A stretch of DNA of 64,000 nucleotides from a virus (IMGVR_UViG_3300048938_000061), one strand, 5' to 3'; counted from the first letter of the stretch, positions 250-50,604 are shown. The notes: generated from the letters alone by a model not told the origin. Made by a program: numbers and translations.

Positions 250-662
250 AGGCTTCGCTCTTCCACTGCTGTCAGAATGCGTGCGGGATCAACATTTGAT
301 GTCAGCCCATCTTTCTTCACCGAGATTTGGGGTAGCGGCCCCAAACCAGCGCGCCGACGCATTTCGTCAAGTGGCACGGTTTTATGAATTTCATCAATAA
401 TAAGCCGCCTACGATTGCTGAAATCAGGAAGCAGCGGTGGCAGGTGCTTTAACATCCGCTTGCCGAAATCAATGACATATACGAGTGGAAGAACAACCAC
501 AAAGATGACCACTAATGGGATCATCGTAATACGCTCACAAATTTTATAGAACGCCGCTTTATCAATTAGATGCCTGATCTCAGGACATGCTTTTGCAACT
601 TTAAACTCAGAATAATATCCGCGTCGTGGCGAAATATATCGCCAAGGAAAGAACGGCTTCAT
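246..662 (-). CDS. hypothetical membrane protein (138 aa)
   Basis: Hydrophobic stretch 'MIPLVVIFVVVLPLVYVI'. Its start overlaps the stop of the upstream phosphoesterase gene (659..662). Confidence 0.55.
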   Translation of the reverse strand: MKPFFPWRYISPRRGYYSEFKVAKACPEIRHLIDKAAFYKICERITMIPLVVIFVVVLPLVYVIDFGKRMLKHLPPLLPDFSNRRRLIIDEIHKTVPLDEMRRRAGLGPLPQISVKKDGLTSNVDPARILTAVEERSL

Positions 663-1495
663 AGCCGCCCTCCTTGGAATTGGTATCTCGGATCATTTAG
701 ATCAATCACAAGGTCAAACTGATAATCTCTGTTTTCATTCACATATCCGCGTGGATTTACAACCACATGGGTATCGTGAACTTGATAATCGAACGAATTG
801 TGGACATGTCCATGAAGGCACAAATGAGGTCTGTACTCATAAATCATATCATCAAGATTCGATACGAAGGACGCGTTCAACGGATCATTTGCATATCGAC
901 TATGAACAGACAATGGATGAACACCATGATGCGTAACCAGTACCGTTTTACCTGCAAAAGGTTCTGCCAAAGCTTTTTCGAGGTATGCCCGAGAAGCGAC
1001 ATGCATATCCAAAATATGCTTGGGATTAAGGCGCGTGTAAGGCTCTTTTCGGTACTTGATCTGATTGAAATCATTCATCGAACCTTTGGCATGTAACATG
1101 CCTAAAGCCTGGTCACCCATGAGCTTATAATCAGTCCAAAGGGTAGCTCCAATGAAACGGACATCACCGATAACAACTTGGTCGTTCTCAAGAAAATGAA
1201 TGTTCGGAAATCTTGTTGCGGCTTTCTTGGCTTCAGCAAGACCATCAACAAGAGAACCCTTATAATATTCATGATTACCCGCCACATAGATCGTTGGAAC
1301 ATGAACATGTTCGGCAAGCCACTCGATTCCTCCTGCTGGCGATTTGTTAACAAGGTCTCCAGTGCATACACAGACATCGATATTCTCGGGCATCTTGAAA
1401 CGATACGAGATGTCGTCGACTTCCAGATGCAAATCAGATAGTGGCCAAATTCTCATTAACGGACTCCTTCTCATTATTATATGCCCGAATTTCAC
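659..1495 (-). CDS. metallophosphoesterase, calcineurin-like (Icc/CpdA-like architecture)
   Basis: Ordered motifs 'LSDLHL' (DxH), 'CTGDLVN' (GD), 'AGNHEYY' (GNHE), 'VTHHG' and 'HGHVH' (GHxH). Paralogue of 12484..13293. Confidence 0.85.
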   Translation of the reverse strand: MKFGHIIMRRSPLMRIWPLSDLHLEVDDISYRFKMPENIDVCVCTGDLVNKSPAGGIEWLAEHVHVPTIYVAGNHEYYKGSLVDGLAEAKKAATRFPNIHFLENDQVVIGDVRFIGATLWTDYKLMGDQALGMLHAKGSMNDFNQIKYRKEPYTRLNPKHILDMHVASRAYLEKALAEPFAGKTVLVTHHGVHPLSVHSRYANDPLNASFVSNLDDMIYEYRPHLCLHGHVHNSFDYQVHDTHVVVNPRGYVNENRDYQFDLVIDLNDPRYQFQGGRL

Positions 1496-1689
1496 ATTAT
1501 ATCAATCATCAGTTTTAAAAATGAATTCGAGACTTCACTTATTAATGTTGAATATGTCGGTTTTTTGGAGAATATTAATACCGGAAATATTCCTGCGAAC
1601 GCAATTTAACGATTTATTTTTTCGACCAACCTTTCCGATCTTTATTTTTGATCAATTATTTAGGCTGAATAAGTCAAAAAGGGATAACA

Positions 1690-2577
1690 ATGACCTATCA
1701 CACCAACGGTTACGACATTCATTCCTCATCTTTCGATAAAAGCATCAATTATTCTAAATTGACCAGTGATGGCGGAATGATTGAAACACGCTTTGTGCAA
1801 AGGTTAAAAGATCGATTTATCGTTTACATATCTTCAATGTCAGGATGCGATAAAGCATGCCGTTTCTGTCATCTAACCCAGACAGGCCAAACGATGGCAA
1901 TGAATCTCACGCGCGATCAAATGCTTGAACAGGCTGAGACGGTTTTATCTTCGTCCGCATATCCCGAAGCCACGACTGTTCATTACAATTTCATGGCGCG
2001 TGGAGAGCCGATGACCAATCCGATGGTCAATAAGCATCTATTCCATGATTTGAAACTGGCGGCCGAGAAACGCGGACTGTTTCCACGCATCAAGATCTCC
2101 AGCATTCTACCAACCGATTTTCATGCTTTCGATCCAACATCTCTATGGGATGAAGAAAGTCCCGCGATTGACTTCTATTATTCACTCTATAACCCCGATC
2201 CGGCCTGGCGCAAACGCTGGATTCCGAAAGCCCTGCCCCCGGAAGAAGCTCTTGCATGGCTTGCTAAGTGGCAGCAAGTCACAGGCAACCGCGTCATTCT
2301 ACACTGGGCGCTAATTGATGGTGAAAATGACACCGAATACAATGCACGTGAGGCAACACGTCTAGCGAACGAAGCTGGCCTAAATTGGGATTTCAATCTC
2401 GTTCGATATAATCCTGCCAATGGTAAATCCAAGGAAGCATCCGAAGATCAGATCGAGCGTTTTCTATCAGTTCTACGCAACGAGGTCAGCGATGCAAACC
2501 GCGTAAAGGTCATCCCCAGGGTTGGTTTCGACGTCAAAGCGTCATGCGGGATGTTTCTAACACCTGAGGCGGCGTAA
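1690..2577 (+). CDS. radical SAM enzyme, RlmN/Cfr-like, lacking the N-terminal domain (295 aa)
   Basis: 'SGCDKACRFCHLTQTG' (Cx3Cx2C) at about residue 50. C-terminal 'KASCGMF' resembles the RlmN C-terminal 'AACGQL' Cys motif. The protein is about 80-100 aa shorter than canonical RlmN. Confidence 0.7.
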   Translation: MTYHTNGYDIHSSSFDKSINYSKLTSDGGMIETRFVQRLKDRFIVYISSMSGCDKACRFCHLTQTGQTMAMNLTRDQMLEQAETVLSSSAYPEATTVHYNFMARGEPMTNPMVNKHLFHDLKLAAEKRGLFPRIKISSILPTDFHAFDPTSLWDEESPAIDFYYSLYNPDPAWRKRWIPKALPPEEALAWLAKWQQVTGNRVILHWALIDGENDTEYNAREATRLANEAGLNWDFNLVRYNPANGKSKEASEDQIERFLSVLRNEVSDANRVKVIPRVGFDVKASCGMFLTPEAA

Positions 2578-2597
2578 TCACCTGGTGTCTTTCTTGG

Positions 2598-3431: not shown

Positions 3432-3458
3432 TTATATCCGAACTAATTATTTGCAAAA

Positions 3459-6924: not shown

Positions 6925-7386
6925 ATGGCCGTAGAAATTGAACGAAAATTCCTAGTAAAAAACGACAGCTGGAAAGCACGCGTCGTCAGCAGCTATCACA
7001 TTATTCAGGGATATCTCGTTGGTGAGCCAAAACTTGCAGTCCGTCTTCGCATCATCGACGACAAGGAAGCCCTTCTTACGATCAAGGGCAAGGGTGAAGG
7101 CATCGCACGACCTGAATACGAGTACCCGATCCCGCTCGTAGACGCCAAAGGAATGCTCTCAATGTGCGGCACACGCATCCTTGAGAAGACACGTCATCTG
7201 ATCAATGCAAACGACGGCCTCAAGTGGGAAGTTGATGTGTTTGCTGGTCGGCACGCTGGTCTCGTACTTGCTGAGATCGAATTGCCAAGCCTCGACACCA
7301 ATGTCGAGTTGCCTGAATGGACAGGCGAAGACGTAAGCGAAGACCCCCGTTATCTCAACGCTGTGCTAGCCATCCCTGCCGAGTAG
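6925..7386 (+). CDS. CYTH-domain protein (CyaB/ThTPase-like triphosphate tunnel metalloenzyme)
   Basis: N-terminal 'EIERKFLV' (the ExExK hallmark of CYTH). 153 aa. Confidence 0.8.
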   Translation: MAVEIERKFLVKNDSWKARVVSSYHIIQGYLVGEPKLAVRLRIIDDKEALLTIKGKGEGIARPEYEYPIPLVDAKGMLSMCGTRILEKTRHLINANDGLKWEVDVFAGRHAGLVLAEIELPSLDTNVELPEWTGEDVSEDPRYLNAVLAIPAE

Positions 7387-7419
7387 CCTGCCATCTTAGG
7401 CTCTACTCGGCGAGACGCA

Positions 7420-9686: not shown

Positions 9687-10469
9687 CTAATGCCAGCCTG
9701 GAACACGCAGGTGCCGTCCTGAACCTTCTTCTTTGCTCCACCGTATGACGTCGCGTATATGTGACAATATATCATCGGGGACTTCCTGACCTTGTCGAGC
9801 ATTTCCATATTTGGTATATAGAAAATCGCGTTGTTGTTCCAGTTCTTCTTCCGATTTAACTCTAGCATAGTCACCGCGTCTAATGCCGAGTTGAAAATCG
9901 GATTTACATATCTTGCTTTTCTCTGCTTGAATTTTATTGAGGGCTTGCGTAAACCTCGGTTCTGCTATTCCAGTCCCACAGGTCCATTCATAATCCATAT
10001 ATTCACGTGAACTGTATGAACCGACTTCGATGCCATTTATTTCCAAATCATATCCAAACTCAGTCGGAACGATGTCCGGACATATACCAGAAATTTCTTC
10101 CATAAATGTTTTTGCGTCGAGCATGATTTCGAAATCATTGCCATCACAAGCTTTGGTGTCGAAAAGTTCAACCTTCATGAAATAAGGTTGATGCGTTGCG
10201 TCAAAGACAGGCTCTTTTCGAAAACATGGTGTCAGAGATACGAATTTCCCTTCGCCGAGCGTCCCATTCATCAATGCATCTACAAAAGACTGCTCTGAAG
10301 ACCCGACGAGCAATCCGAGATTTCTTAACTCATAAGTTCGGCTGAGATCATCCAGTGTTGAACTAACAGCTTCAATGCTCGCATGCCATGGCAGATCAAC
10401 GCGCTTATAACCAAGATTTTCATACCAATTGAGCGCTTTGACAAGGAACTCCCAGTTAACGGCGACCAT
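9687..10469 (-). CDS. class II aminoacyl-tRNA-synthetase-like catalytic core (SerRS-like paralogue without tRNA-binding arm)
   Basis: 'TPCFRKEPVFDATHQPYFMKVELF' parallels the SerRS motif 2 of this same window ('[28 protein letters not shown]'). 'GTGIAEPRFTQALNKIQ' parallels motif 3 ('GSGVAVGRLLIAIMENYQ'). Only 260 aa. Overlaps the upstream gene by 14 nt. Confidence 0.55.
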   Translation of the reverse strand: MVAVNWEFLVKALNWYENLGYKRVDLPWHASIEAVSSTLDDLSRTYELRNLGLLVGSSEQSFVDALMNGTLGEGKFVSLTPCFRKEPVFDATHQPYFMKVELFDTKACDGNDFEIMLDAKTFMEEISGICPDIVPTEFGYDLEINGIEVGSYSSREYMDYEWTCGTGIAEPRFTQALNKIQAEKSKICKSDFQLGIRRGDYARVKSEEELEQQRDFLYTKYGNARQGQEVPDDILSHIRDVIRWSKEEGSGRHLRVPGWH

Positions 10470-11274
10470 TAGCGAATGCCCTTGCTGTTACTGCAGCCAT
10501 ATCAAGAAGACTCTGAAGTGAAATCGATGGATGATGCTTGTTCAGGTAAGCTTCTATGGCACCCTGAAGGTCGGATAACTCTACAAGCGCCATTATGTCC
10601 ACGCCCTGCTTGACAGCATCCATGAACTCATTGACCTCTTCCGCAATCTTTGAAGGTTCTCCAAGGATGCCCTTCTCGATATCCGTGATGTGATAACCAG
10701 GTCTCGCCTGCTTTGGCAAAAGGTCAGCGATGTAATCCCAGAGCATATTGGGTGCAATCTTGCGTTCAAACGGACATACAGACGCCGCATTCACCTCCCG
10801 GATAACGTTTGCCAAATCTTTGGTGACTGGACCGCGTTCAAGATAAGTGACCGCCTTCGTGGCGCGAATACGATGAAACCCAGTTTCTGCAAACTCGTAG
10901 CTGGTGCCAGCGCTCATGTGGTAAGTGCTACCCTGTCGAAGAAAACCACGTGCAACCGGAACAGGGTCTTTGCTTTCACCTGGCTTACAGGACACCTGAA
11001 TAATTTCATGGTCTCCATCTGGAGCGTTTTCGATAAACCATTCTTCATGAGTTATCTTGCCAAGCAAGATATGCGAATGAAATCGATATCGATGATCGTG
11101 AAGCTCCTCTTCAGGAGTGTCCGCGAGCAAATCAGGATGCCAGAAATGAATTCGAGTATCATCCGTGAGCTTTAGCTGAATAAATCCGAGGCCAAACCAA
11201 TGCGGTGTCGTGCCGAATGAACGCAGGTGATCGACGTCCAGAAATTGGTCTAAACGGCCATCAAAAATACTCAT
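10456..11274 (-). CDS. two-domain protein: His-rich N-terminal domain (cupin-like?) fused to MazG-like NTP pyrophosphohydrolase domain
   Basis: C-terminal 'AEEVNEFMDAV...LVELSDLQGAIEAYL' fits the MazG/HisE all-alpha EExxE...D pattern. The N-terminal region has 'HFWHPD...HDHRYRFHSH'. Confidence 0.5.
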   Translation of the reverse strand: MSIFDGRLDQFLDVDHLRSFGTTPHWFGLGFIQLKLTDDTRIHFWHPDLLADTPEEELHDHRYRFHSHILLGKITHEEWFIENAPDGDHEIIQVSCKPGESKDPVPVARGFLRQGSTYHMSAGTSYEFAETGFHRIRATKAVTYLERGPVTKDLANVIREVNAASVCPFERKIAPNMLWDYIADLLPKQARPGYHITDIEKGILGEPSKIAEEVNEFMDAVKQGVDIMALVELSDLQGAIEAYLNKHHPSISLQSLLDMAAVTARAFANGRR

Positions 11275-12461: not shown

Positions 12462-12483
12462 TATTCGTAAGGGAGACCATTTT

Positions 12484-13293
12484 TTAAAGTTCGATGACTT
12501 TACCGAACTCAAATTTTTCGTTTTCAGCGCCATAGCCCCGAGGGTTGCAAATCACCCTTGTGTTGCCAACATGGTAATCAAATGGCTGATGAACATGTCC
12601 ATGAACCCAAAGGTTAGGTTGATGTTCTTCAATTAAATCTGACAAATCAGAAACGAAAGCTCCATTCGTCGCATCGCCTTCAAATTTCGGATGAATTGAA
12701 GCTCTGTGTGGAGCATGATGGCTTACTACAACCGTTTTGCCATCAAAAGGTACCGCCAGAGTGACGTCGATGAAACTCCTCGTCTCTTGGTGAAGAGTTA
12801 CAAAGTCAGAAGGAAGTGCAAGCCTTGGAATGATGCCATCGCCTTTAGGAGCCTTTAAATAAATATTGCTGTAGTCCGACAGCCCATTTTTAGCGGCCCA
12901 CATGGCTTTTTGGATCGCTACATTACGCTCCGCTCCTGCTTCAGGGGCATCAATTGCAAAGTCAGTCCACAACGTGCCACCAAGAAAGCGTACGCCTTCA
13001 ATGATTTCAACACCGTTATCAAGGAAAGTCACATCTAGAGCGTTTGCGATAAGCCGCGCATTTTTGCGACCGCTTTCGATTGATGTATCATAGAATTCAT
13101 GATTTCCTGGCACCCAGATGACTGGCATTTTTGGCCTGACGACTTTTCCCACCCAGTTAATCGCAAGATGCATTGAATCGGTGACATCGCCAGCCAGAAC
13201 ACAAACATCAGCCTGCGGGTATCGATCAGGCTTTATCAACCGGATCGCGTCCTTCTGTGGGATATGTAGGTCAGATAAAATCCAGATACGCAT
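12484..13293 (-). CDS. metallophosphoesterase, calcineurin-like (paralogue of 659..1495)
   Basis: 'LSDLHI', 'LAGDVTD', 'PGNHEFYD', 'VSHHAPH', 'VHGHVHQPFDY'. Clear end-to-end similarity to 659..1495. Confidence 0.85.
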   Translation of the reverse strand: MRIWILSDLHIPQKDAIRLIKPDRYPQADVCVLAGDVTDSMHLAINWVGKVVRPKMPVIWVPGNHEFYDTSIESGRKNARLIANALDVTFLDNGVEIIEGVRFLGGTLWTDFAIDAPEAGAERNVAIQKAMWAAKNGLSDYSNIYLKAPKGDGIIPRLALPSDFVTLHQETRSFIDVTLAVPFDGKTVVVSHHAPHRASIHPKFEGDATNGAFVSDLSDLIEEHQPNLWVHGHVHQPFDYHVGNTRVICNPRGYGAENEKFEFGKVIEL

Positions 13294-13390
13294 ATGTCTT
13301 GATTACAGGATCAGAATTACTCGGTCAACGATTTAAATATTGACAATAATTATTTATTTAAATAAATGGTCCTTAACAAAGGACATAATT

Positions 13391-15019
13391 ATGAGTTTCC
13401 CCGTTCCAAATGCTATTTTAAATGAACTTAAGCATGACGATTTCTCAAAAACACAAAGTCTTTATTCTAATACGGCGAGAGATCCCGACAGAGAGGTTAA
13501 AATTGACCTTTCAAAGCTATCTGATGACGCTGTTTATGAGCTAGCTGCAGCATTCGAGCAGGCGGACATCATGAAAAATGTACGGATGCTGAATTCAATT
13601 CTTGATTCACGCTCTGGGAAAAAAGACCAGACGGTCAGAGGACTGGAAAGCTTACCAGACCTCCTTAAGAGTTACCTAGAAGTTGAACAAATCAATAAAT
13701 GGATTTTCCGTCGTGAAAAAGATGGGCAGCTTTATCCATATCTCGTTAAAGCCATTCAGATGTGCTCCGATGACAGTTTTCGTCAGACAGACAAAGAAGA
13801 TCAGTTTGTCATCATGCGCCTCGTCTCTTACAGCATTTGCGACGATGGAAAGATGGGAACAAAGTCCGAAACGATCTCGTTTCATCGGCATCACGTATCC
13901 AATCGCAGGATTTCCAAAATCCTGTCCGATTTTGATCTTTTCAAGGAGACAAAAGAACTGATCGCTGAGTACGAAGCTCAAGTGGAGCGTTATCGTGAAA
14001 TCATTATGCCTGGATTTTCGCAGCAATTTGTTGCCACCGGACAGACCGTAAAGATTGGCTATAGCGGCAAGGACACTTTTTTAAACAAAACACGCGTCAT
14101 TCACGACCTGTCTTCAAAAGATTTTGGTGCTTATAACGACACCATGGACGCTGAGACGAAGACCAATCACAATGAAAGCTTCCCGTGTCCATTGCATCCT
14201 ATGGTCAAGGTTTTCGATCTTGAATCTCATGATTTCCATTGGATCAATGGCAATATGGTGGAGCCATATGTCTATAAAAACCTACTCAATCATCTGGTTT
14301 TGCCAGAAACCCATCACGACCTTCTGGAAATGCTTACTGATGACCTGACAGACTTCTCGAATGATTTCGTTGAAGGCAAGGCAGCTGGAAACCTGATTAT
14401 CTGTAAGGGGCCTCCAGGCGTCGGCAAAACGCTGACAGGTGAACTGTATTCAGAGCATAAAAAAGTGCCTCTAATCGTATTACGCGCGGGCAAACTCGGC
14501 ACTACGGTTGCTGAAGTCACAAAAGGAATGAAGCAATACCTGGAATGGGCCACGAGGTGGAATTGCCCTATCCTCGTTAATGAATGCGATATCTACATTG
14601 CCAAGCGCAGTGATAATATCAATCTGAACGCAATCGTCGCCGAAATGCTGCAGTTGGTTGAGTACTATCCTGGCCTGCTCTTTATGACGACAAATCGTCC
14701 TGACGATATCGATGATGCGTTCGTCAGTCGTGCGTTGGCAATTATCAATTACGCAGCACCTGAAGGAAATCTCGTGGACGAAAGCTGGCGTCAGATTGCT
14801 TCTCTTCATGATTTGAAAATGGACGAAACTATGATCATGTCTCTCAAACAGCAATTCCCAAGCATCGTTCAGAGAGACATGAAGATGCTTCTGAAACTCG
14901 CAATGAAAAGATCGAAGCGCAGCCGAGAACCGATTACTCCAGACTTGCTACGCAAGATGGCAATGTTCCGAGACATCAAGATGTCGGCAATTGAATTAGG
15001 CACTCCAGATAACCAATAA
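13391..15019 (+). CDS. AAA+ ATPase (classical AAA clade) with about 340-aa unknown N-terminal domain
   Basis: Walker A 'GPPGVGKT'. Walker B-like 'ILVNECD' (Asn in place of the usual Asp). Sensor-1/Arg-finger region 'TTNRPDDIDDAFVSRA'. The start is probably 'MSFPV' (RBS 'aaagga'); the ORF track extends to 13340. Confidence 0.8.
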   Translation: MSFPVPNAILNELKHDDFSKTQSLYSNTARDPDREVKIDLSKLSDDAVYELAAAFEQADIMKNVRMLNSILDSRSGKKDQTVRGLESLPDLLKSYLEVEQINKWIFRREKDGQLYPYLVKAIQMCSDDSFRQTDKEDQFVIMRLVSYSICDDGKMGTKSETISFHRHHVSNRRISKILSDFDLFKETKELIAEYEAQVERYREIIMPGFSQQFVATGQTVKIGYSGKDTFLNKTRVIHDLSSKDFGAYNDTMDAETKTNHNESFPCPLHPMVKVFDLESHDFHWINGNMVEPYVYKNLLNHLVLPETHHDLLEMLTDDLTDFSNDFVEGKAAGNLIICKGPPGVGKTLTGELYSEHKKVPLIVLRAGKLGTTVAEVTKGMKQYLEWATRWNCPILVNECDIYIAKRSDNINLNAIVAEMLQLVEYYPGLLFMTTNRPDDIDDAFVSRALAIINYAAPEGNLVDESWRQIASLHDLKMDETMIMSLKQQFPSIVQRDMKMLLKLAMKRSKRSREPITPDLLRKMAMFRDIKMSAIELGTPDNQ

Positions 15020-15044
15020 ATAACAAATAATTATCATTAATGAG

Positions 15045-15090
15045 GCTGTCCGATTAAAGTCGAGCGGCCTTATTTTTTGAATAATGCTTA
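15045..15090 (+). terminator. possible rho-independent terminator (imperfect)
   Basis: 'aggctgtccgattaaagtcgagcggcct' imperfect hairpin followed by 'tatttttt'. Confidence 0.3.
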
Positions 15091-15174
15091 AATATCACCG
15101 GAATCTCTACAATAAACCTTGCGGACTCTTTATTGCTTTGGATATCATTAACCCTCAAATGATGAGGTTTTATT

Positions 15175-16374: not shown

Positions 16375-16973
16375 GATACAACCTCTTACCACTTGACGAC
16401 CAGTTCGCAGCGATCATGGATCATCTCGATACATTGAGAGATGAAAACCACCCTAAGGAAATGCGTCCAAGCTATCTTCGGGAACTTGTGAAGCAAGCAA
16501 GCAAGCGCGATGACCTCCCACGAGACAAAGTTTGTCGCTGGCTTGGCTATTGCTATGGCATAGTGATGGCACGGCACAGCAGCCTATCGCAGATATTTTC
16601 GTTTAACGAACCAAAACTTGTTGATGATTTATCGAACCATCCTGTGGTTATGGCGTCATTGGAAATTCTAAACCATTTACAAACTATCATCCAAAAGAAC
16701 GATAAAATCGTTCGATATGCCGATAATTTCCCCAATACTGAGAATGTTTACGCACCAATTTTAATTGAAGCATTGATCGATTATACAAAAAAAGACGCAA
16801 AACTAATTGGTGTAAATGCTTTAAGTCTTCGTCTTGGATTAATTCAAGGCTACATGGTCGCTTATAACTATATCGACGTTGACCAGGAACGTAATTTCAC
16901 CAGGCCTTTATTTCACAAAGCCTACGAAAATATTGGGATTGTGCCACCAAGAAGTGTTTCTGTTAGTGTCTAA
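16371..16973 (+). CDS. hypothetical protein (200 aa)
   Basis: ATGA-type coupling to the upstream gene. Confidence 0.55.
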   Translation: MRYNLLPLDDQFAAIMDHLDTLRDENHPKEMRPSYLRELVKQASKRDDLPRDKVCRWLGYCYGIVMARHSSLSQIFSFNEPKLVDDLSNHPVVMASLEILNHLQTIIQKNDKIVRYADNFPNTENVYAPILIEALIDYTKKDAKLIGVNALSLRLGLIQGYMVAYNYIDVDQERNFTRPLFHKAYENIGIVPPRSVSVSV

Positions 16974-16985
16974 AAGGAAATCACC

Positions 16986-43938: not shown

Positions 43939-44901
43939 TCAAAGACATCTATAAATTGGAGTATTCACTGCATCAAGTTTATTTACCCATGTCAGATGCT
44001 CATCGAAAAGCTGGTCTTCACCACGCCACGTATATGCTGCCAGCACACCGTCCTTCGCTATCGAGAAATCGAGGCAAGCCATCTTCGGCGAGAGCAAATA
44101 GGGCGTTCCGCTCATCCAATAGTGACCGAAGAACGTCAGCTTGTTCGATGCCGCAATCTTCAGATGATCTGGGAGTGAAAGCTCAGGCAGGTTCTCTAAA
44201 CCTTCTTCCGGCATGACAGCACTGCGATAATCAGTGGCGTCATCCTTCCACCATTGCAAGCGTGATTTTGTTCTAACGACACCACCCTTGTCGGTAAAAG
44301 AAAAACCGTCAGGAAGTTCGATCTCCAACCCCTTGGTGACAACCTCAATTGGATCATAAAGGGCATGCCCCTTTTCGAAACTTGCTAGAAGATCGTCACG
44401 ATTCATTGACCCATCATCGTTCATATGAGCTTTTAACGCGTTAAGAGAACTCGGATGCCAACATGCATGAGCCGCTCTGAAATCATCCGTTTCAAAAGCG
44501 ACAGCCAACGTCGAAAAGAATTCAACCAACTCTTTATGGAGATTTGAATCTTCACCAACAGCTTCGATGAAGGCTTTATGTTGATGACGGTTTTTGGGCC
44601 CACGTAGTCGTAAATGTCGGCCGGACTTACTGTCGGGAACTGGTGTTGCATAACCGATTGCGTTGAGTTCGTGATTGCCCATCAAAACATGAGCTGCGCC
44701 AGCATCACGCATTCTCCGAGGGATGTCTATGGAACGAAGTTGGTCAGGACCGCGATCAATCAGATCACCCAGAAAGATAGCCATCCTGTTGGGATTTGAA
44801 TGGCGATAGGTCCCGGCCCTGTTTACGTAACCAAGCTTTTCCAGAAGAGATTCAAGTGCATCAGCGTGACCGTGAATATCTCCAATAAAATCGTATTCCA
44901 T
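43939..44901 (-). CDS. PPP-family metallophosphatase (ApaH/PrpA-like)
   Basis: 'GDIHGH' (GDxHG), 'LGDLIDRGP' (GDxxDRG), 'GNHE'. Confidence 0.85.
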   Translation of the reverse strand: MEYDFIGDIHGHADALESLLEKLGYVNRAGTYRHSNPNRMAIFLGDLIDRGPDQLRSIDIPRRMRDAGAAHVLMGNHELNAIGYATPVPDSKSGRHLRLRGPKNRHQHKAFIEAVGEDSNLHKELVEFFSTLAVAFETDDFRAAHACWHPSSLNALKAHMNDDGSMNRDDLLASFEKGHALYDPIEVVTKGLEIELPDGFSFTDKGGVVRTKSRLQWWKDDATDYRSAVMPEEGLENLPELSLPDHLKIAASNKLTFFGHYWMSGTPYLLSPKMACLDFSIAKDGVLAAYTWRGEDQLFDEHLTWVNKLDAVNTPIYRCL

Positions 44902-45683: not shown

Positions 45684-46976
45684 TTAATTAGGCTGGATAG
45701 TCTCAAGCCCACCCATATACGAACGTAACGAGGTCGGAACCGTGATGGTGCCGTCTTCGTTCTGATAATTCTCCATGATCGCGATCAGGAGACGCCCGAC
45801 AGCGACCCCGGAACCATTGAGCGTATGAACGAATTGTGTACCCTTCTGGCCCCTTACCTTGTGACGGGCATTCATGCGACGGGCCTGGAAGTCACCGCAA
45901 TACGAGCAGCTTGAAATCTCACGGTAGGTCTTCTGGCCTGGTACCCAGACTTCGATGTCGTAGGTTTTGCGAGCGCTAAAGCCCATATCGCCGCCGCAGA
46001 GTAGCATTACGCGGTACGGAAGCTCGAAAGCCTGCAGGATAGCCTCAGCAGCGCCTAGCATGCGCTCCAGTTCCACTTCGCCGTCCTCTTCCTTCACAAT
46101 CGATACCAGCTCGACCTTATTGAACTGATGCTGCCGTAGAATACCTCGGACGTCACGGCCAGCCGATCCTGCTTCCGAACGGAAACATGGCGTAAGCGCA
46201 GTAAACCGTAGCGGCAAGCTTTCCGTCTCCACGATCTGATCGGAAACCAGATTGGTAAGCGAGACCTCAGCTGTTGGGATCAGGTAACGGCCATCCGTCG
46301 TTTTAAAGAGATCTTCTTCAAATTTGGGAAGCTGTCCTGTGCCGAACATTGCGGTTTCGCGAACCAGCAGAGGCACCTGACATTCCTCGTAACCGTGCTT
46401 GCTTGCCATATCTAGCATAAACTGACCAAGCGCACGTTCCAGCTTAGCAATACCTCCACGAAGAACAACAAAGCGGGAACCCGAGATGCGACCAGCGCTC
46501 TCGAAATCTAGACCGCCAAGTTCTTCACCAAGCTCAAAATGCTGTTTTGGCAAAAAACCCATTTCAGGGATCAATCCAACCGTCCGTACAAGAACATTGT
46601 CTTTCTCATCAACGCCAGCAGGTACACTATCGAGTGGCAAGTTAGGGAAAGTGGCAAGTCGATCAATCAGAGCGTCACCAACCGCTTTCGCTTTAACTTC
46701 CAGCGAGGAGATGGCTTCCTTCAAGGTTGCCACATCTTGCTTAAGAGCATCGCCGGAAGCCTTGTCACCTGCTTTATAAAAGGCTCCAATTTTCGATGAA
46801 AGAACCTTTACCTCATGATTTTTGGTTTCAATTTCCGAATTCGATTCATTGACGATATCACGGGAATCGCGAACAAATCCAAAAATGAACAGCGCCTCAT
46901 CACGCGTATAACCACGCTTCTCAAGGCCTGCAATAAATGCTTCCTCATTATCAATAATTGTTTTTGCGTTATGCAT
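45684..46976 (-). CDS. serS: seryl-tRNA synthetase
   Basis: N-terminal coiled-coil arm. Motif 2 'FRSEAGSAGRDVRGILRQHQF'. Motif 3 'GSGVAVGRLLIAIMENYQ'. 430 aa. Confidence 0.95.
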   Translation of the reverse strand: MHNAKTIIDNEEAFIAGLEKRGYTRDEALFIFGFVRDSRDIVNESNSEIETKNHEVKVLSSKIGAFYKAGDKASGDALKQDVATLKEAISSLEVKAKAVGDALIDRLATFPNLPLDSVPAGVDEKDNVLVRTVGLIPEMGFLPKQHFELGEELGGLDFESAGRISGSRFVVLRGGIAKLERALGQFMLDMASKHGYEECQVPLLVRETAMFGTGQLPKFEEDLFKTTDGRYLIPTAEVSLTNLVSDQIVETESLPLRFTALTPCFRSEAGSAGRDVRGILRQHQFNKVELVSIVKEEDGEVELERMLGAAEAILQAFELPYRVMLLCGGDMGFSARKTYDIEVWVPGQKTYREISSCSYCGDFQARRMNARHKVRGQKGTQFVHTLNGSGVAVGRLLIAIMENYQNEDGTITVPTSLRSYMGGLETIQPN

Positions 46977-47022: not shown

Positions 47023-47565
47023 TTAAATAGACACGTCTCTCGTCTTTTTAAGAGATTTGGAAATCATAGATCGAAGCTGGTCACGATAAAGACCATCGTC
47101 TTTTTTCTTTGGCTTGAAATAGCCCCAGTTGTCAAGAAATCCGAGAAATTGCTGATGCTGCTCATGCGACAGCTTTAGAATTTCCCCCATAAAGCTATGC
47201 ATGACAACAACACGAGGGTCGCCCTCTGGAGAAACAGTGATTGTCATCGATGAGCTAGTGTTTTCATCAATTGTATCAACAAGTGAACCGACAAACTCCG
47301 GACGATCATGGTTCTTTGCAAACCAAGGAAGTAATTCGCCGCAATCGATAATCGGAACATATTGAACAGCGCCATCACTTTCATCAACACGCGTGATAAT
47401 GCCTTGGCTTACTAGAATATCCAGCGCAATTTGTGCGCGCTTGGAAGGACGCACGGCCTTCATGCCAAATCGAAGTGTGCCTTTATTGGGCTCAAGCATA
47501 CCAAACCAAGCCGCACAAATTGCCTTAACTTCATCAGTTAGATTTTCAAACTTTTCAATGCTCAT
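47023..47565 (-). CDS. hypothetical protein (180 aa), last gene of the candidate operon
   Basis: Long ORF 95 nt downstream of the previous gene. No motif recognised. Confidence 0.55.
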   Translation of the reverse strand: MSIEKFENLTDEVKAICAAWFGMLEPNKGTLRFGMKAVRPSKRAQIALDILVSQGIITRVDESDGAVQYVPIIDCGELLPWFAKNHDRPEFVGSLVDTIDENTSSSMTITVSPEGDPRVVVMHSFMGEILKLSHEQHQQFLGFLDNWGYFKPKKKDDGLYRDQLRSMISKSLKKTRDVSI

Positions 47566-47660
47566 ATCTAAAATCCTCTTCGCGGGGATTTAAACACCAT
47601 TGCGCTTAAAACATCAACTGAAAATGTCATTATTTATTCGGAATTATTAAGTACGCATTT

Positions 47661-48203
47661 TTAATTATGGTAATTCGTATTTTCCTCAGCGGATAAAGTC
47701 TGGTATTTGGGGATAATTATGCCAAGGGAGACAACAGAGCCACTTAAAAAACCACCGAGTTCGACATTAATTCCATTATCGCCACGATAAATAGCAGCAG
47801 CCAATCGATGATGGCCATCAAATAAACTAATTGGCAAATAATCACTGCCATTCAATTCAATTCCAATTGGCTCATCGAAACCATAATGCACAAGGAATGC
47901 AATCCGGGCTTCATGTTTGGCAGCGCCCCATGATCTTTCATGAATGGCAAATTGTGCTGAATATGGTTCGGCTTCGAAACGCAAGGCTTCAATGGCAACC
48001 TTCACTCCATTCATCGTCACGCCTTTGCCATCGTGCCAAGGTGAGTTTTCAAATGGGTTAAACTCAGCTAGACGATCAAGAGGAAGGCTACCAATCAGCC
48101 TATCTTCACTATCAGGATGAAATTCAATGAGATTTTCAACACCGCCCCAACGTTCGGCATCTTCTAACGGAATAGTTTCGACCAAATTTTCATCCATCAC
48201 CAA
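47661..48203 (-). CDS. ParB/sulfiredoxin-fold-like protein (180 aa) - tentative
   Basis: 'SLFDGHHRLAAAIYRG' resembles the ParB/Srx DGxHR nucleotide-binding/nuclease motif. Overlaps the upstream micro-ORF by 7 nt. Confidence 0.5.
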   Translation of the reverse strand: MVMDENLVETIPLEDAERWGGVENLIEFHPDSEDRLIGSLPLDRLAEFNPFENSPWHDGKGVTMNGVKVAIEALRFEAEPYSAQFAIHERSWGAAKHEARIAFLVHYGFDEPIGIELNGSDYLPISLFDGHHRLAAAIYRGDNGINVELGGFLSGSVVSLGIIIPKYQTLSAEENTNYHN

Positions 48204-48403
48204 GCCTCAATAATAGCGAACGGGTTTACCGTAGCCCAAACAAGACCATCATACTCGACCAGATGGTGTTCTCCAAACTGATCCAGAACATTAAAGACGC
48301 CTGGTTCCGCATAAGGTTGCGTTTCGCCGACGAACTGGACCTTGCGCCCAAGATCGTCATCCATAACCGACATTTCGATGTCGTCACCAAGCTTGGGCTT
48401 CAT
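48197..48403 (-). CDS. micro-protein (68 aa), translationally coupled
   Basis: Internal Met 'MKPKLGDD...' preceded by 'GGAAGGAAAAGCAA'. The ORF-track 124-aa version would overlap the upstream gene by 188 nt. Confidence 0.45.
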   Translation of the reverse strand: MKPKLGDDIEMSVMDDDLGRKVQFVGETQPYAEPGVFNVLDQFGEHHLVEYDGLVWATVNPFAIIEAW

Positions 48404-49406
48404 TTGCTTTTCCTTCCAAGATTCCCGCATCAAGTAGCCCCTTCTCGGTGACGACATAACCGACACCACCGCGCTCGATCCAATCGGCGGCAAGCAATTC
48501 ATTGATCTCACCGTTACTAATGTCGAACGCACCGCATCTCGCACGAGGATTGGATCGCTTACTGTAAGCATTCAGGCCACCCGCAGAATGAGCATATGCA
48601 AGCAGCTTTTTGCGTTTAGGGGTCATCTTGATCGTAGCGACATACGCGTCACGAATAGCCTTCTTCTTGGCTTCTTCAGCCTGGTTCAAGGCAGTTGAAA
48701 TTCTCTCCGAGATCGCAATCACATCGGGGATGGTGGCGATATCGCTCACTTTGACATCGAATTCATCCGTCTCAAGCCCGTTCTCTTGCAAGATCGAGTG
48801 AACGAGAGCTTTATGCTGAGGATGAAATTGAAAGAGATGGCCGCAGGAAGTTTCGACCGAATACGGGCCAGTTGGCTCTTTAAAAGAGACCTGCATCAAG
48901 TCGCCTTGAGAGTTTTTGACACGCAGGAATCCACGACCAAATTCAAATCCAGTGGGTCGCCCTTCAAAACGTGATCCGCCTGCGGCGACAAATGCGTCGA
49001 AGATTGGCTGTGCGGCAATGGATTCAGCATCATGATCCCGCGCACGTTCTGCAGTGACTTGATCCAGATGGCGAGCGATAGCCGCCGAGTCATGCTTACC
49101 GTACGTATGGCCAACGAATTTCAAACAGTCGTTGACTGAATTTCCTTCGCAGCGAGGTTCATCGAGGCGACCGATGATAACAATTCTGTTCGCCTCAGTG
49201 GTGCCGACATTCCAGTCGTAAACAACACTGTTCCCAAGACCTGCATAGTCGAGACCTTGCACAAAAGATTCAGCTGTCCTGCTATCTGTGAACGAATGAA
49301 TTTCAACCAGAAACGACGGAAGCTGATCAACCGATGTCAGCGGCTCACCGTCTAGCGCGGAGATGCCTGTATTGTTACCCGGATTAGCGAACAGCTCGGC
49401 CATCAC
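48384..49406 (-). CDS. hypothetical protein (340 aa)
   Basis: Long ORF. Its start overlaps the stop of the upstream gene (49403..49406). Confidence 0.6.
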   Translation of the reverse strand: MMAELFANPGNNTGISALDGEPLTSVDQLPSFLVEIHSFTDSRTAESFVQGLDYAGLGNSVVYDWNVGTTEANRIVIIGRLDEPRCEGNSVNDCLKFVGHTYGKHDSAAIARHLDQVTAERARDHDAESIAAQPIFDAFVAAGGSRFEGRPTGFEFGRGFLRVKNSQGDLMQVSFKEPTGPYSVETSCGHLFQFHPQHKALVHSILQENGLETDEFDVKVSDIATIPDVIAISERISTALNQAEEAKKKAIRDAYVATIKMTPKRKKLLAYAHSAGGLNAYSKRSNPRARCGAFDISNGEINELLAADWIERGGVGYVVTEKGLLDAGILEGKANEAQAW

Positions 49407-49804
49407 TCCACGCCTCCTGGCTTGTCAGGATCTTCGGGATGACGTTCATAGCGAATATGATATTTTGCCAAAGACAGTTTTTCTGTTCCAATTATACGAA
49501 CGATTTCACCATAAGTTAATTCATACTCGGCAACGGCCACATTAAAAATATTCCCGACACCCTTAACAGCGCTCATCAATGGATCGCTTGCAAGAGGATG
49601 ATCAGACCATTTCAAAGTAGCTTCCCGCTCTGACATGTCATGGCGTCCAGCATCAATCCAAAAACGTTCTATCTCATTCCAGATATAATAAATATCCATA
49701 TATGAAAATTCGCCAACACTAGAAATATAATTTTCAACCGCACATAGAATTTGGGTTTCGGCTTTTTTAGCTTCTAATTCTCGCTTATGAATTTTCATTC
49801 TCAC
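49403..49804 (-). CDS. hypothetical protein (133 aa)
   Basis: ORF 14 nt downstream of the phosphatase gene. Confidence 0.5.
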   Translation of the reverse strand: MRMKIHKRELEAKKAETQILCAVENYISSVGEFSYMDIYYIWNEIERFWIDAGRHDMSEREATLKWSDHPLASDPLMSAVKGVGNIFNVAVAEYELTYGEIVRIIGTEKLSLAKYHIRYERHPEDPDKPGGVE

Positions 49805-49818
49805 AACTCCAATATTCT

Positions 49819-50604
49819 TTATGCAGCGATTTCTACGTATTCATTCATATTATTATCGAACACAGTGCCAAGACCGCGATCAAGCAGGACAGGTTCGACG
49901 TCGACAACAGACTTGAAACTGCCATCCGTCTGGAAAAAACGGAACGAGCCGTTATCGATAGCTACTGCCGTTAGGCGACCGCTATGATAAGCACCCGTAT
50001 CAATCGAAATGCGATTTTCCGTGACGACTGGAAGGTCGCCAACGACAGTGTGTCCGTGAACAATAATGTTCTGAAGACGCCCAACATGATCCAGAAACGG
50101 GTCCCTGATCCACATCAGGTTCTTTTCCGTCTGATCTGTTAGGGAAACCATTGGATCGATGCCAGCGTGGGCGAAAACGATACCGTCAACAGTTACCATT
50201 GGCTTGGCGTTCGCAAACATGCGCAGATGATCTCCATGCATGGTACGCACAAACTCCACTGCCTCATTTAGGTCGCCTGGATAATATGAAGCCAATGTTT
50301 CCATACCACCGCGAGACATCCAAGCCGCTGCATATCTGCGATCCTGTTCAAATACAGCTTTCAGAAAAAGGTCATCATGATTGCCCTTAAGAACAATTGA
50401 ACCTTCATAATCGATGAGAGCTTCTGCAACGGCATCCATGGCCTGACGGGATTGAGGCCCCTTATCGCAGATATCACCTAAAAAAATAAAAATGGGAGTG
50501 GCGTCATGAATTGCAGCATCTGCAACAGCATGCGCCATGATCGCGTTTAGAAGATCAGCGCGACCATGGACATCACCAATTGCATAAGTGATTTTCTTTG
50601 ACAT
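49819..50604 (-). CDS. PPP-family metallophosphatase (second copy)
   Basis: 'GDVHGR', 'LGDICDKGP', 'GNHDD'. Start at 'MSKKITYA', preceded by 'aaaggggcgagaa'. Confidence 0.85.
   Translation of the reverse strand: MSKKITYAIGDVHGRADLLNAIMAHAVADAAIHDATPIFIFLGDICDKGPQSRQAMDAVAEALIDYEGSIVLKGNHDDLFLKAVFEQDRRYAAAWMSRGGMETLASYYPGDLNEAVEFVRTMHGDHLRMFANAKPMVTVDGIVFAHAGIDPMVSLTDQTEKNLMWIRDPFLDHVGRLQNIIVHGHTVVGDLPVVTENRISIDTGAYHSGRLTAVAIDNGSFRFFQTDGSFKSVVDVEPVLLDRGLGTVFDNNMNEYVEIAA

What the first reader, a model, noticed from the sequence alone, without database searches (positions are those of the whole stretch)
659..50604. Four metallophosphoesterases (two paralogous pairs) in 64 kb, each beside different ORFan cargo
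The Icc/CpdA-like pair (659..1495 and 12484..13293) is alignable end-to-end, from 'MRIW(P/I)LSDLH' to 'HGHVH(N/Q)(S/P)FDY'. The PPP pair (43939..44901 and 49819..50604) shares GDxHG / GDxxD(R/K)G / GNH(E/D). Each copy flanks a distinct set of uncharacterised genes: a radical SAM gene; an AAA+ cluster; a six-gene ORFan operon; and a repeat protein. Such repeated 'conserved enzyme plus variable neighbours' patterns are typical of signalling or defence modules. One possibility is phosphoesterases acting on cyclic or oligonucleotide signals. An alternative is a lineage-specific expansion of regulatory phosphatases.
Basis: partly seen in the sequence, partly recalled or inferred. Interest (0 to 1): 0.55.

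Follow-up and report, generated by a model that had tools for sequence, protein, structure and literature searches.

The report
Four conserved phosphoesterase genes, no system
The four metallophosphoesterase genes are real, but they are old, vertically inherited chromosomal genes of a Rhizobiales lineage that keep the same order and spacing in distant relatives. The differing neighbours are mostly later insertions, so this is an ordinary arrangement, not a new defence or signalling system.

Summary
All four genes encode intact binuclear metallophosphoesterases (Pfam PF00149). MPE1 (659-1456) and MPE2 (12484-13293) are true full-length paralogues (40% identity, E=3e-61). MPE3 (43939-44901) and MPE4 (49819-50604) share only the N-terminal PPP motif block (34% over 74 aa), so they belong to one subclass but are not a close pair.

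The source is a low-GC (44%) Hyphomicrobiales bacterium related to 'Mesorhizobium sp. SP-1A'. On a relative's contig (proteins 50-66% identical, GC 67%) the four orthologues lie at about 1.2-2.0, 11.8, 44.9 and 50.4 kb. They have the same order and strand there, with conserved rSAM, CYTH, serS, DprA and several 'ORFan' neighbours. MPE4 and MPE3 are also neighbours next to DprA in Agrobacterium rubi and Rhizobium leguminosarum.

The variable neighbours are lineage-specific insertions: a five-gene AAA+ cluster with jumbo-phage homologues, and a block containing AbiEi/AbiEii. None of the four reaches the curated cut-off of CpdA, YfcE, ApaH, PrpE, PrpA/B or Pnkp. PADLOC gives only a weak partial hit to an unvalidated candidate (PDC-S10).

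MPE1/2 belong to a large family that is often multi-copy in Proteobacteria and also occurs in about 190 large-phage records (phrog_1649). Its substrate is unknown.

Verdict: uncharacterised members of known enzyme kinds; low interest.

The parts
659..1456 (-). MPE1: Icc/PptH-like metallophosphoesterase, 265 aa, with all metal-binding motifs
   Evidence: PF00149 E=6e-13. phrog_1649 E=3e-51, full length. 40% identical to MPE2. Orthologues: R. leguminosarum pRlX5 at 50% and the L092 terminal fragment.
1476..1505 (-). Promoter-like site (TTGATA-18-TATAAT, 11/12) upstream of the MPE1 ATG
   Evidence: This is a consensus match only. The overall promoter count was 45 against 35 +/- 6 in shuffles, about 1.7 sd above background.
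1690..2577 (+). Radical-SAM-like Fe-S protein (CxxxCxxC at residues 53-60), divergent from MPE1
   Evidence: Pfam Radical_SAM E=1.8e-4, below cut-off. phrog_27142 E=6e-85. 40-44% identity to jumbo phages. Orthologues at 55% in L092 and 57% in L102. Motif seen.
6925..7386 (+). CYTH-domain protein, a conserved backbone neighbour
   Evidence: PF01928. 81% in L091 and 50% in L092, where it overlaps the rSAM gene. Clusters at >=90% with WP_315922308.1 of Mesorhizobium sp. SP-1A.
9687..11274 (-). Conserved pair of unknown-function genes (260 aa and 272 aa) downstream of MPE2
   Evidence: 73-88% in L091 and 52-63% in L092/L093. No Pfam family above cut-off.
12484..13293 (-). MPE2: paralogue of MPE1, 269 aa
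   Evidence: PF00149 E=6e-16. phrog_1649 E=6e-55. Orthologues at 77% (L091), 61% (L092) and 51% (A. rubi L087). AF2 model pLDDT 87; best PDB fold is Mtb PptH 6UNC, TM about 0.6.
13340..18046 (+). Five-gene AAA+ cluster, a lineage-specific insertion beside MPE2
   Evidence: AAA PF00004. phrog_29662 E=2e-69 and 30% identity over 88% to phage PBS1/AR9. Third gene matches phrog_7775. Present in L091; absent in L092, L093 and L087.
43939..44901 (-). MPE3: PPP-type (Pnkp-phosphatase/ApaH/PrpE-like) phosphoesterase, 320 aa
   Evidence: PF00149 on the N-terminal half. Motifs GDxHG, GDxxDRG, GNHE, HACW and GHYW are invariant. AF2 pLDDT 92; best fold is 4J6O, TM to target 0.69. Orthologues at 83% (SP-1A), 58% (L094) and 48% (A. 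rubi, R. leguminosarum).
45684..46976 (-). serS (seryl-tRNA synthetase), lying between MPE4 and MPE3
   Evidence: PF00587/PF02403. 58% identical and in the same position in L094.
47023..49804 (-). Five small, tightly packed genes downstream of MPE4; the 339 aa and 180 aa genes are conserved
   Evidence: ORF spacing. The 339 aa gene is 36% and the 180 aa gene 41% identical in L094. The 178 aa gene is 38% identical in A. rubi. No Pfam, PADLOC or PHROG hits.
49819..50604 (-). MPE4: lambda-phosphatase/NinI/ApaH-like PPP phosphoesterase, 261 aa
   Evidence: PF00149 E=1e-11. phrog_246 E=5.5e-41. Below all NCBIfam cut-offs. Orthologues at 56-57% in L094, R. leguminosarum and A. rubi.
50728..56226 (.). 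Block absent from the L094 relative: 185/177 aa tandem paralogues, a 631 aa gene, AbiEi/AbiEii (53931-55534) and a 228 aa gene
   Evidence: No L094 match. AbiEii PADLOC E=9e-53 and AbiEi E=2e-4. Paralogue pair at 35%. The 228 aa gene has a 40% homologue between MPE4 and MPE3 in R. leguminosarum.
56619..57966 (.). DUF4031 gene and DprA, conserved backbone neighbours of MPE4
   Evidence: PF13223 and PF02481. 65% and 61% in L094; DprA 37-39% in R. leguminosarum and A. rubi.

Best explanation
There is no single system. The window carries two old sets of metallophosphoesterase genes that belong to the conserved replicon backbone of a Hyphomicrobiales (Rhizobiales) lineage.

MPE1 and MPE2 descend from an ancient, probably tandem, duplication. 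Their family is Icc/PptH-like and is habitually multi-copy in Proteobacteria. They are predicted Mn/Fe-dependent phosphodiesterases with an unknown small-molecule or phosphodiester-linked substrate.

MPE3 and MPE4 are two different PPP-type enzymes that have been neighbours since before Rhizobiaceae and this lineage diverged. MPE3 is like the Pnkp phosphatase domain and ApaH. MPE4 is like lambda phosphatase, NinI and ApaH. They are predicted phosphomonoesterases or dinucleoside-polyphosphate hydrolases. MPE4 is probably co-transcribed with a few small genes running into serS.

Each enzyme acts on its own. The different 'cargo' beside each reflects insertion of lineage-specific genes between conserved genes, namely a phage-related AAA+ cluster and an AbiE toxin-antitoxin block, plus fast sequence drift in a strongly AT-shifted genome.

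Shown: domain identity, intact catalytic motifs, paralogy, synteny, insertions.
Inferred: substrates, independence of the four genes, operon structure.
For: - Domains and motifs.
- Paralogy is restricted to the MPE genes themselves.
- Collinearity of all four orthologues with almost identical spacing on ENA contig NODE_361 (GC 67%, proteins 50-66% identical). The MPE1-type N-terminus is seen there.
- The close relative L091 is fully syntenic, including the AAA+ cluster. L092, L093 and A. rubi lack that cluster.
- MPE4 and MPE3 are adjacent or 3 kb apart next to DprA in A. rubi and R. leguminosarum.
- MPE1 and rSAM orthologues are still linked on R. leguminosarum pRlX5.
- The family is commonly multi-copy: 13 of 81 loci have a second copy, and pRlX5 has six matches.
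- The NJ tree puts MPE1 and MPE2 in different old clades.
- No window neighbour of MPE1/2 recurs in 80 other loci.
- PADLOC finds only AbiE as a recognised system in the window.
- No riboswitch or other Rfam element lies near any MPE.
Against: - Four MPEs among about 68 genes is more than a random draw would give.
- Conservation of the four-gene layout over large divergence could itself reflect selection for co-location.
- MPE1 and MPE2 each sit head-to-head with a gene that has strong large-phage homologues (rSAM-like, AAA+). The MPE1/2 family is itself common in large lytic phages.
- In other Rhizobiales the family is linked to a DUF6634 plus FtsH-like AAA/M41 module, so some members may work in multi-gene systems.
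- Substrates are untested.
- The tree has no bootstrap support.
- The MPE1 orthologue in L092 was seen only as a 53-residue fragment.
Confidence: 0.72

Rival explanations
1. Defence or counter-signalling modules. The MPE1/2-type enzymes would degrade cyclic or oligonucleotide immune signals, or otherwise take part in phage conflict. Their variable neighbours (rSAM-like gene, AAA+ cluster) would be sensor or effector partners.
For: - Weak PADLOC hits of MPE1/2 to candidate PDC-S10 (E=6e-14 and 4e-12).
- The family is present in about 190 large-phage records at 32-39% identity.
- Both divergent neighbours have strong phage homologues.
- The AAA+ core resembles IetA and TRIP13 ATPases.
- An AbiE pair lies 3.3 kb from MPE4.
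- A phage MPE with an anti-defence role is documented in mycobacteriophages (PMC12287305).
Against: - The PDC-S10 match covers only the N-terminal half at 44-50 bits. The candidate is unvalidated, and PADLOC has called it in jumbophage genomes.
- The MPEs are syntenic backbone genes while the AAA+ cluster is a later insertion next to one of them.
- rSAM-MPE1 spacing drifts from 0.2 to 2.4 to 9 kb among relatives.
- In phages that have both genes they are over 100 kb apart.
- No neighbour recurs across 80 loci.
- The characterised mycobacteriophage MPE was not shown here to belong to the same family.
Confidence: 0.1
2. Horizontally acquired island or degraded giant prophage. The MPEs and their neighbours would have arrived together as phage or mobile-element cargo.
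For: - Several window genes have PHROG matches (MPE1/2, MPE4, rSAM-like, AAA+, 16371-16973).
- Many neighbours have no Pfam family.
- AbiE, ART-PolyVal, DUF4031 and DUF6927 lie in the right-hand part of the window.
- Homologues occur on megaplasmids and chromids.
Against: - No repeats, tRNAs or attachment-like features were found.
- No structural or integrase genes were detected among the proteins scanned.
- Most other neighbours have no PHROG hit.
- Housekeeping genes are interspersed: serS, DprA, AddAB-like, HtpX/LemA, DsbB, RNase J-like.
- Composition is even, 41-50% GC.
- The 50 kb layout is collinear with a relative of very different GC content, which means long vertical residence.
Confidence: 0.06
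3. A functionally coordinated nucleotide-metabolism neighbourhood. MPE4 and/or MPE3 would be ApaH-like Ap4A or dinucleoside-polyphosphate hydrolases tied to serS. MPE1 would be a cyclic-nucleotide phosphodiesterase paired with the nearby CYTH (class IV cyclase-like) protein.
For: - MPE4's best NCBIfam match is symmetrical Ap4A hydrolase (E=2e-13).
- MPE3's fold is next-closest to ApaH.
- MPE4, small genes and serS are tightly packed in both the window and L094.
- Aminoacyl-tRNA synthetases are a main Ap4A source (PMC10148737).
- CYTH lies near MPE1 in the window, L091 and L092.
Against: - Scores are far below the ApaH cut-offs: 50 against 176 bits, and 21 against 223 bits.
- serS is not between or near MPE4 and MPE3 in A. 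rubi or R. leguminosarum.
- No CYTH gene was found near the MPE1 orthologue on pRlX5.
- CpdA score is 33 against a 225-bit cut-off.
- CYTH proteins are often triphosphatases rather than cyclases (my own knowledge).
Confidence: 0.12

Closest known systems
Phage 'metallo-phosphoesterase' family phrog_1649 (e.g. Rhizobium phage P10VF gp038, CcrColossus gp102, KVP40.0051)
   Same: MPE1 and MPE2 match the profile full-length (E=3e-51 and 6e-55). They are 32-39% identical to the phage proteins, with the same length and motifs.
   Different: The window genes are chromosomal or chromid backbone genes. Function is unknown in phages too. Phage contexts vary: replication genes, tRNA arrays, or a DUF2493 partner.
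M. tuberculosis phosphopantetheinyl hydrolase PptH (PDB 6UNC)
   Same: Best solved-structure match to the MPE2 model (Foldseek E=3e-9, TM about 0.6). Best sequence-profile hit in the PDB (E=4e-7).
   Different: Only 18-20% identity. The sequence match covers only the first ~70 residues. It is not an orthologue, and the substrate cannot be transferred.
CpdA/Icc 3',5'-cAMP phosphodiesterase and YfcE / TIGR03729 phosphoesterases
   Same: Same class-III-PDE-like MPE architecture and motifs, with weak NCBIfam hits.
   Different: Scores against cut-offs are 33/225 (CpdA), 28/56 (YfcE) and 40/148 (TIGR03729), so these genes are not members.
Phosphatase domain of bacterial Pnkp (C. thermocellum, PDB 4J6O)
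   Same: Best fold match (E=2e-12, TM to target 0.69) and best sequence match (E=8e-11) for MPE3. PPP-type motifs are shared.
   Different: MPE3 is a stand-alone 320 aa protein without kinase or ligase domains. TIGR04075 score is 60 against a 750-bit cut-off. No Hen1 gene was noted nearby. An RNA ligase lies about 9 kb away in relatives only, and none was found in the window.
ApaH / PrpE Ap4A hydrolases and PrpA/PrpB / lambda phosphatase (NinI) protein phosphatases
   Same: MPE4 and MPE3 have GDxHG, GDxxD(R/K)G and GNH(E/D) motifs. MPE4 matches phrog_246 (NinI-like) at E=5.5e-41. Both have weak NCBIfam hits to ApaH, PrpE and PrpA/B.
   Different: All scores are far below the equivalog cut-offs. 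These are distinct Rhizobiales-centred orthologue groups.
Plant 'Rhizobiales-like phosphatase' RLPH2 (PDB 5VJV)
   Same: Best PDB sequence hit for MPE4 (E=1.4e-6) and among the top folds for MPE3. The class is named for its similarity to Rhizobiales PPP enzymes.
   Different: The match covers only about 75 N-terminal residues. RLPH2's tyrosine-phosphatase specificity cannot be assumed here.
PADLOC phage-defence candidate PDC-S10
   Same: MPE1 and MPE2 hit the model (E=6e-14 and 4e-12).
   Different: The match is partial (model positions 10-113 of 223) at low score. The candidate is not experimentally validated, and PADLOC has called it in jumbophage genomes.

Membership tests
Calcineurin-like metallophosphoesterase superfamily (PF00149) | Pfam score above gathering cut-off, with the five metal-binding motifs (DxH, GD, GNH[E/D], H, GHxH or GH) | tested here: met
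   All four score 41-60 bits against a 21.5-bit cut-off. Motif residues are invariant in the family alignments A1 and A2. MPE4's motifs are visible.
phrog_1649 (phage metallo-phosphoesterase) | Full-length match to the PHROG profile | tested here: met
   MPE1 scores 175 bits (residues 1-251) and MPE2 187 bits (residues 1-260). PHROGs has no curated cut-off.
CpdA/Icc cAMP phosphodiesterase (NF008359) | NCBIfam equivalog score >= 225 bits | tested here: not met
   MPE1 33 bits, MPE2 25 bits.
YfcE family (TIGR00040) and TIGR03729 acc_ester | Score >= 56 bits (YfcE) or >= 148 bits (acc_ester) | tested here: not met
   20-28 bits and 39-40 bits respectively.
ApaH symmetrical Ap4A hydrolase (NF001204 / TIGR00668) | Equivalog score >= 176 bits (NF001204) or >= 223 bits (TIGR00668) | tested here: not met
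   MPE4 50.5 bits. MPE3 41 and 21 bits.
PrpE (NF010148) and PrpA/PrpB (NF007425, NF008516) | Equivalog score >= 340 bits (PrpE), >= 332 bits (NF007425) or >= 326 bits (NF008516) | tested here: not met
   MPE3 51.5 and 18 bits. MPE4 40, 40 and 31 bits.
Bacterial Pnkp (TIGR04075) | Three-domain kinase-phosphatase-ligase protein scoring >= 750 bits | tested here: not met
   MPE3 scores 60 bits on the phosphatase segment only, and the protein is 320 aa with a single domain.
PptH phosphopantetheinyl hydrolase | Orthology to Rv2795c and hydrolysis of phosphopantetheine from carrier proteins | tested here: inconclusive
   It is the best fold match, but at TM about 0.6 and 19% identity. The sequence match is N-terminal only. 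Activity cannot be tested here.
Known anti-phage defence system (PADLOC-DB v2) | MPE and neighbours match the component models of a defined system | tested here: not met
   Only a partial PDC-S10 hit for MPE1/2 and generic AAA-core hits to IetA and TRIP13. Other neighbours give no hits. AbiEi/AbiEii is a separate two-gene system.
Conserved gene-neighbourhood module (enzyme plus partner) | The same neighbour family recurs next to the MPE across unrelated genomes | tested here: not met
   No window neighbour of MPE1/2 has a homologue in 80 family loci. The recurrent neighbours elsewhere (a second MPE copy, AAA-M41, DUF6634, LysR) are absent from the window.

The most novel reading that the evidence does not exclude
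The MPE1/2 clade (phrog_1649-like, PptH-like fold) could be an enzyme family shared by hosts and phages that acts on one conflict-relevant substrate. That substrate might be a nucleotide immune signal or a phosphodiester-linked protein or carrier modification. In that case the bacterial paralogue pair, the phage-derived AAA+ cluster beside MPE2, and the DUF6634-AAA/M41-MPE modules of other Rhizobiales would be variants of an undescribed defence or regulatory system.
Probability: 0.08. Interest if true: 0.55.

Novelty: new member of a known kind. Interest (0 to 1): 0.18.

Why it matters
The main value is as a correction. An apparent 'conserved enzyme plus variable cargo' pattern can arise from ancient paralogues sitting in a conserved backbone with insertion hot spots. 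Synteny with moderately distant relatives tells the two apart quickly.

There is also a modest positive result. The work delineates three uncharacterised but widespread metallophosphoesterase orthologue groups:
- an Icc/PptH-like family, frequently multi-copy, that is shared with large phages;
- a Pnkp/ApaH-like 320 aa family;
- a NinI/ApaH-like 260 aa family.

All three are centred on Rhizobiales, have unknown substrates, and would be reasonable targets for enzymology.

Tried and rejected
- **Duplicated modules:** I looked for duplicated DNA or duplicated neighbour genes around the paralogues and found none.
- **AAA+ next to MPE2:** I tested whether it is the same as the FtsH-like AAA/M41 neighbour seen in other Rhizobiales. 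Only the generic AAA core is shared (25% over 126 aa), so this was rejected.
- **Co-travelling in phages:** The MPE and the rSAM-like gene are over 100 kb apart in phages that have both. No other AAA+ cluster gene was found beside the phage AAA+ homologue in the two phage loci checked. Rejected.
- **Prophage or island reading:** Only a few neighbours have PHROG hits. There are no tRNAs or repeats. Rejected.
- **RNA ligase:** Relatives have one near the DprA-MPE4 block, but I found none in the window or its flanks.
- **Regulatory RNAs:** The Rfam scan gave no hits.
- **Promoters and terminators:** Terminator-like sites were at background. Promoter-like sites were 45 against 35 +/- 6 in the left region. 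Only the site at 1505-1476 stood out.
- **Organism identification:** The reference-genome scan did not recover the source species; the best match was 43%. Identity was inferred instead from >=90% and 83% matches to Mesorhizobium sp. SP-1A proteins.
- **Unused tools:** I did not use the representative-library search or the third fold search, because neither would give context or names bearing on the question.

Full report
**Observation**

ORF listing and Pfam confirm four metallophosphoesterase (MPE) genes, all on the minus strand:

| Gene | Coordinates |
|---|---|
| MPE1 | 659-1456 |
| MPE2 | 12484-13293 |
| MPE3 | 43939-44901 |
| MPE4 | 49819-50604 |

Homologues begin at MRIW, the public gene call is 265 aa, and an 11/12 promoter-like site sits at 1505-1476.
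- MPE1 and MPE2 are true full-length paralogues: 40% identity over 273 aa, E=3e-61.
- MPE3 and MPE4 share only the N-terminal PPP motif block: 34% over 74 aa, E=4e-8. They belong to one subclass but are not a close pair.
- MPE1 against MPE4 shows no significant similarity.
- An all-against-all comparison of window proteins and a DNA repeat search show that nothing besides the MPE genes themselves is duplicated around them.

**What each enzyme is**

- *Housekeeping families.* None of the four reaches a curated NCBIfam cut-off for CpdA, YfcE, TIGR03729, ApaH, PrpE, PrpA/B or Pnkp. Scores are 20-60 bits against cut-offs of 56-750. They are not orthologues of those families.
- *MPE1/2.* They match phage family phrog_1649 full-length (E=3e-51 and 6e-55). 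The catalytic residues are invariant. An AlphaFold model of MPE2 (pLDDT 87) is closest to M. tuberculosis PptH (6UNC; TM about 0.6, 19% identity), followed by MPPED2, Mre11/SbcD and GpdQ.
- *MPE3.* Its family keeps GDxHG, GDxxDRG, GNHE, HACW and GHYW. The model (pLDDT 92) is closest to the C. thermocellum Pnkp phosphatase domain (4J6O), then ApaH, RLPH2, Shewanella-type tyrosine phosphatases and lambda phosphatase.
- *MPE4.* It matches NinI-like phrog_246 (E=5.5e-41). Its best PDB sequence hit is Arabidopsis 'Rhizobiales-like phosphatase 2'.
- *Family size.* Each family is large: over 7000, over 4800 and over 2600 hits respectively. Named members are mainly Rhizobiales.

**Source organism**

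- The window lies on a 1.0 Mb JGI metagenome contig.
- Its CYTH protein clusters at >=90% with a protein of 'Mesorhizobium sp. SP-1A', and MPE3 is 83% identical to that strain's orthologue.
- The window is 44% GC. Syntenic relatives are 49-68% GC.

**Comparative genomics, the decisive evidence**

- *Close relative (MPE2 orthologue 77%, L091).* It has the same neighbours as the window, including the AAA+ cluster.
- *Distant relative (ENA contig NODE_361; GC 67%; proteins 50-66% identical).* It carries all four orthologues at about 1.2-2.0 kb, 11.8 kb, 44.9 kb and 50.4 kb. They are on one strand and in the same order, almost exactly as in the window (0.7, 12.5, 43.9 and 49.8 kb).
- *Conserved alongside them:*
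  - the radical-SAM-like gene (55%) and CYTH (50%) near MPE1;
  - the 272 aa and 260 aa pair near MPE2;
  - the 339 aa and 180 aa genes and serS between MPE4 and MPE3;
  - DUF4031, DprA and a methyltransferase beyond MPE4.
- *Missing from that relative, and from A. rubi where tested:*
  - the five-gene AAA+ cluster (13340-18046);
  - most of the 50728-56226 block, which holds the tandem 185/177 aa paralogues, a 631 aa gene and AbiEi/AbiEii.
  
  By parsimony these are insertions in the window's lineage.
- *Further out.* MPE4 and MPE3 orthologues are adjacent in A. rubi, and 3 kb apart in R. leguminosarum pRlX5. In both they lie next to DprA. The MPE1 orthologue (50%) on pRlX5 is still within 9 kb of the rSAM-like orthologue (57%).

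The four-MPE layout is therefore ancestral and vertically inherited.

**Behaviour of the MPE1/2 family elsewhere**

- In 80 loci from reference genomes, the commonest neighbour of a family member is another family member. A second copy lies within 10 kb in 13 of 81 loci.
- pRlX5 has six matches to the family.
- A rough NJ tree without bootstrap support places MPE1 with a Mesorhizobium clade. MPE2 falls with its syntenic orthologues, next to the Mesorhizobium tandem copies. This implies an old duplication.
- No window neighbour of MPE1 or MPE2 has a homologue in those 80 loci.
- A different recurrent module appears in 11-12 Rhizobiales loci: DUF6634, then a soluble FtsH-like AAA+/M41 protein, then the MPE. 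The window's AAA+ gene shares only the generic AAA core with it.

**Phage connection**

- The family occurs in about 190 large or jumbo phage records at 32-39% identity.
- The radical-SAM-like neighbour (CxxxCxxC motif) matches phrog_27142 (E=6e-85) and jumbo phages at 40-44% identity.
- The AAA+ neighbour matches phrog_29662 (E=2e-69) and Bacillus phages PBS1/AR9.
- In phages these genes are not adjacent to the MPE, and phage contexts of the MPE vary.
- Most other window neighbours have no PHROG hit.

These are gene families exchanged between large phages and hosts. They do not show that the window is a prophage or a defence island.

**Defence test**

- PADLOC recognises only AbiEi/AbiEii in the window.
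- MPE1/2 give partial 44-50 bit hits to the unvalidated candidate PDC-S10. PADLOC has also called PDC-S10 in jumbophage genomes (PMC13573597).
- A mycobacteriophage MPE with an anti-defence role is a precedent (PMC12287305). Membership of the same family was not established here.
- No Rfam element or tRNA is present.

**Mechanism**

The most likely reading is four independent binuclear-metal hydrolases.
- MPE1/2 are phosphodiesterases of unknown substrate.
- MPE3/4 are PPP-type phosphomonoesterases or dinucleoside-polyphosphate hydrolases.
- MPE4 heads a tightly packed gene run reaching serS in both the window and the distant relative. Aminoacyl-tRNA synthetases are a main Ap4A source (PMC10148737). 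From my own recollection, not checked here, SerRS can make Ap4A. An ApaH-like role is therefore a reasonable but weak hypothesis, because serS is not linked to MPE4 in A. rubi or R. leguminosarum.

**Verdict**

The defence/signalling-module interpretation is not supported. The 'paralogue expansion' alternative is partly right but ancient. Novelty is limited to uncharacterised members of a known superfamily, and interest is low.

Noticed in passing
L006, L008-L013, L018, L020, L027, L036, L047 (upstream of the MPE at about 10001 in each locus): A recurrent co-directional module in Rhizobiales: DUF6634 small protein, then a soluble FtsH-like AAA+ (PF00004) plus Peptidase_M41 protein of 650-750 aa, then an MPE1/2-family gene, often followed by a second tandem copy. 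Its AAA core hits PADLOC IetA at 97 bits. Function is unknown, and the module is absent from the window.
   Followed up: partly
window 13340-18046 (+): A five-gene cluster led by a 559 aa AAA+ protein. That protein is homologous along its length to 'ATP-dependent protease' genes of Bacillus jumbo phages PBS1/AR9 (30% identity, phrog_29662). The third gene matches phrog_7775. The cluster is present only in the closest relative, so it looks like a phage-derived insertion of unknown function.
   Followed up: partly
window 1690-2577 (+): A short (295 aa) radical-SAM-like protein with CxxxCxxC. It is 40-44% identical to Fe-S proteins of nucleus-forming and other jumbo phages (201phi2-1, Psa21, CcrColossus, Brevundimonas phages), some of which are annotated RlmN-like. 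In relative L092 its orthologue overlaps the CYTH gene.
   Followed up: partly
window 26176-28311 and 28380-30632 (+): Tandem paralogues of 711 and 750 aa (31% identity over 740 aa). Neither has a Pfam hit on record or a PADLOC match.
   Followed up: no
window 50728-51285 and 51314-51847 (-): Tandem paralogues of 185 and 177 aa (35% identity) just upstream of MPE4. They are absent from the L094 relative and have no family match.
   Followed up: no
window 53931-55534 (+): An AbiEi/AbiEii toxin-antitoxin (abortive infection) pair. AbiEii scores E=9e-53 in PADLOC. It is the only recognised defence system in the window and lies in a lineage-specific block.
   Followed up: yes
window 41404-43008 (+): A 534 aa protein with a run of CxxCxGxG (DnaJ-type zinc-finger-like) repeats and a hydrophobic C-terminus that may span the membrane. 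The neighbouring 212 aa protein (43044-43682) is an internal two-fold repeat.
   Followed up: no
window 1-64000 compared with L092, L094, L096, L086: The window is 44% GC. Collinear regions of relatives are 59-68% GC, and the closest relative is 49%. The source is therefore a strongly AT-shifted Hyphomicrobiales lineage related to 'Mesorhizobium sp. SP-1A'.
   Followed up: partly
window 12100-12480 (-) and 12126-12461 (+): Two overlapping antisense ORFs lie downstream of MPE2. The plus-strand one is conserved at 64% in L091 against 32% for the minus-strand one. The minus-strand ORF, which would look like an MPE2 operon partner, is therefore probably spurious.
   Followed up: yes
L099 (Vibrio phage KVP40 NC_005083.2, 27354-28558): The KVP40 MPE homologue lies two genes from a small ORF annotated as matching PF00550 (a phosphopantetheine-binding carrier protein). 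This is curious because the family's closest solved fold is the phosphopantetheinyl hydrolase PptH.
   Followed up: no
NZ_CP140867.1 (R. leguminosarum TP16 pRlX5, 1.32 Mb); L096 and L102: This single non-mobilizable megaplasmid or chromid holds six matches to the MPE1/2 family. It also carries the DprA-MPE4-MPE3 block and the rSAM-like orthologue.
   Followed up: partly
window 56341-62470: A group of genes typical of mobile-element or conflict contexts lies beyond DprA: DUF4031, a methyltransferase, DUF6927 and a weak ART-PolyVal match. Several are nevertheless conserved in the L094 relative.
   Followed up: no
window 9687-10469 (-): The conserved 260 aa neighbour of MPE2 gives faint sub-threshold Pfam hits to class II aminoacyl-tRNA synthetase cores (PF00152 at E=0.005, PF01409 at E=0.04).
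   Followed up: no
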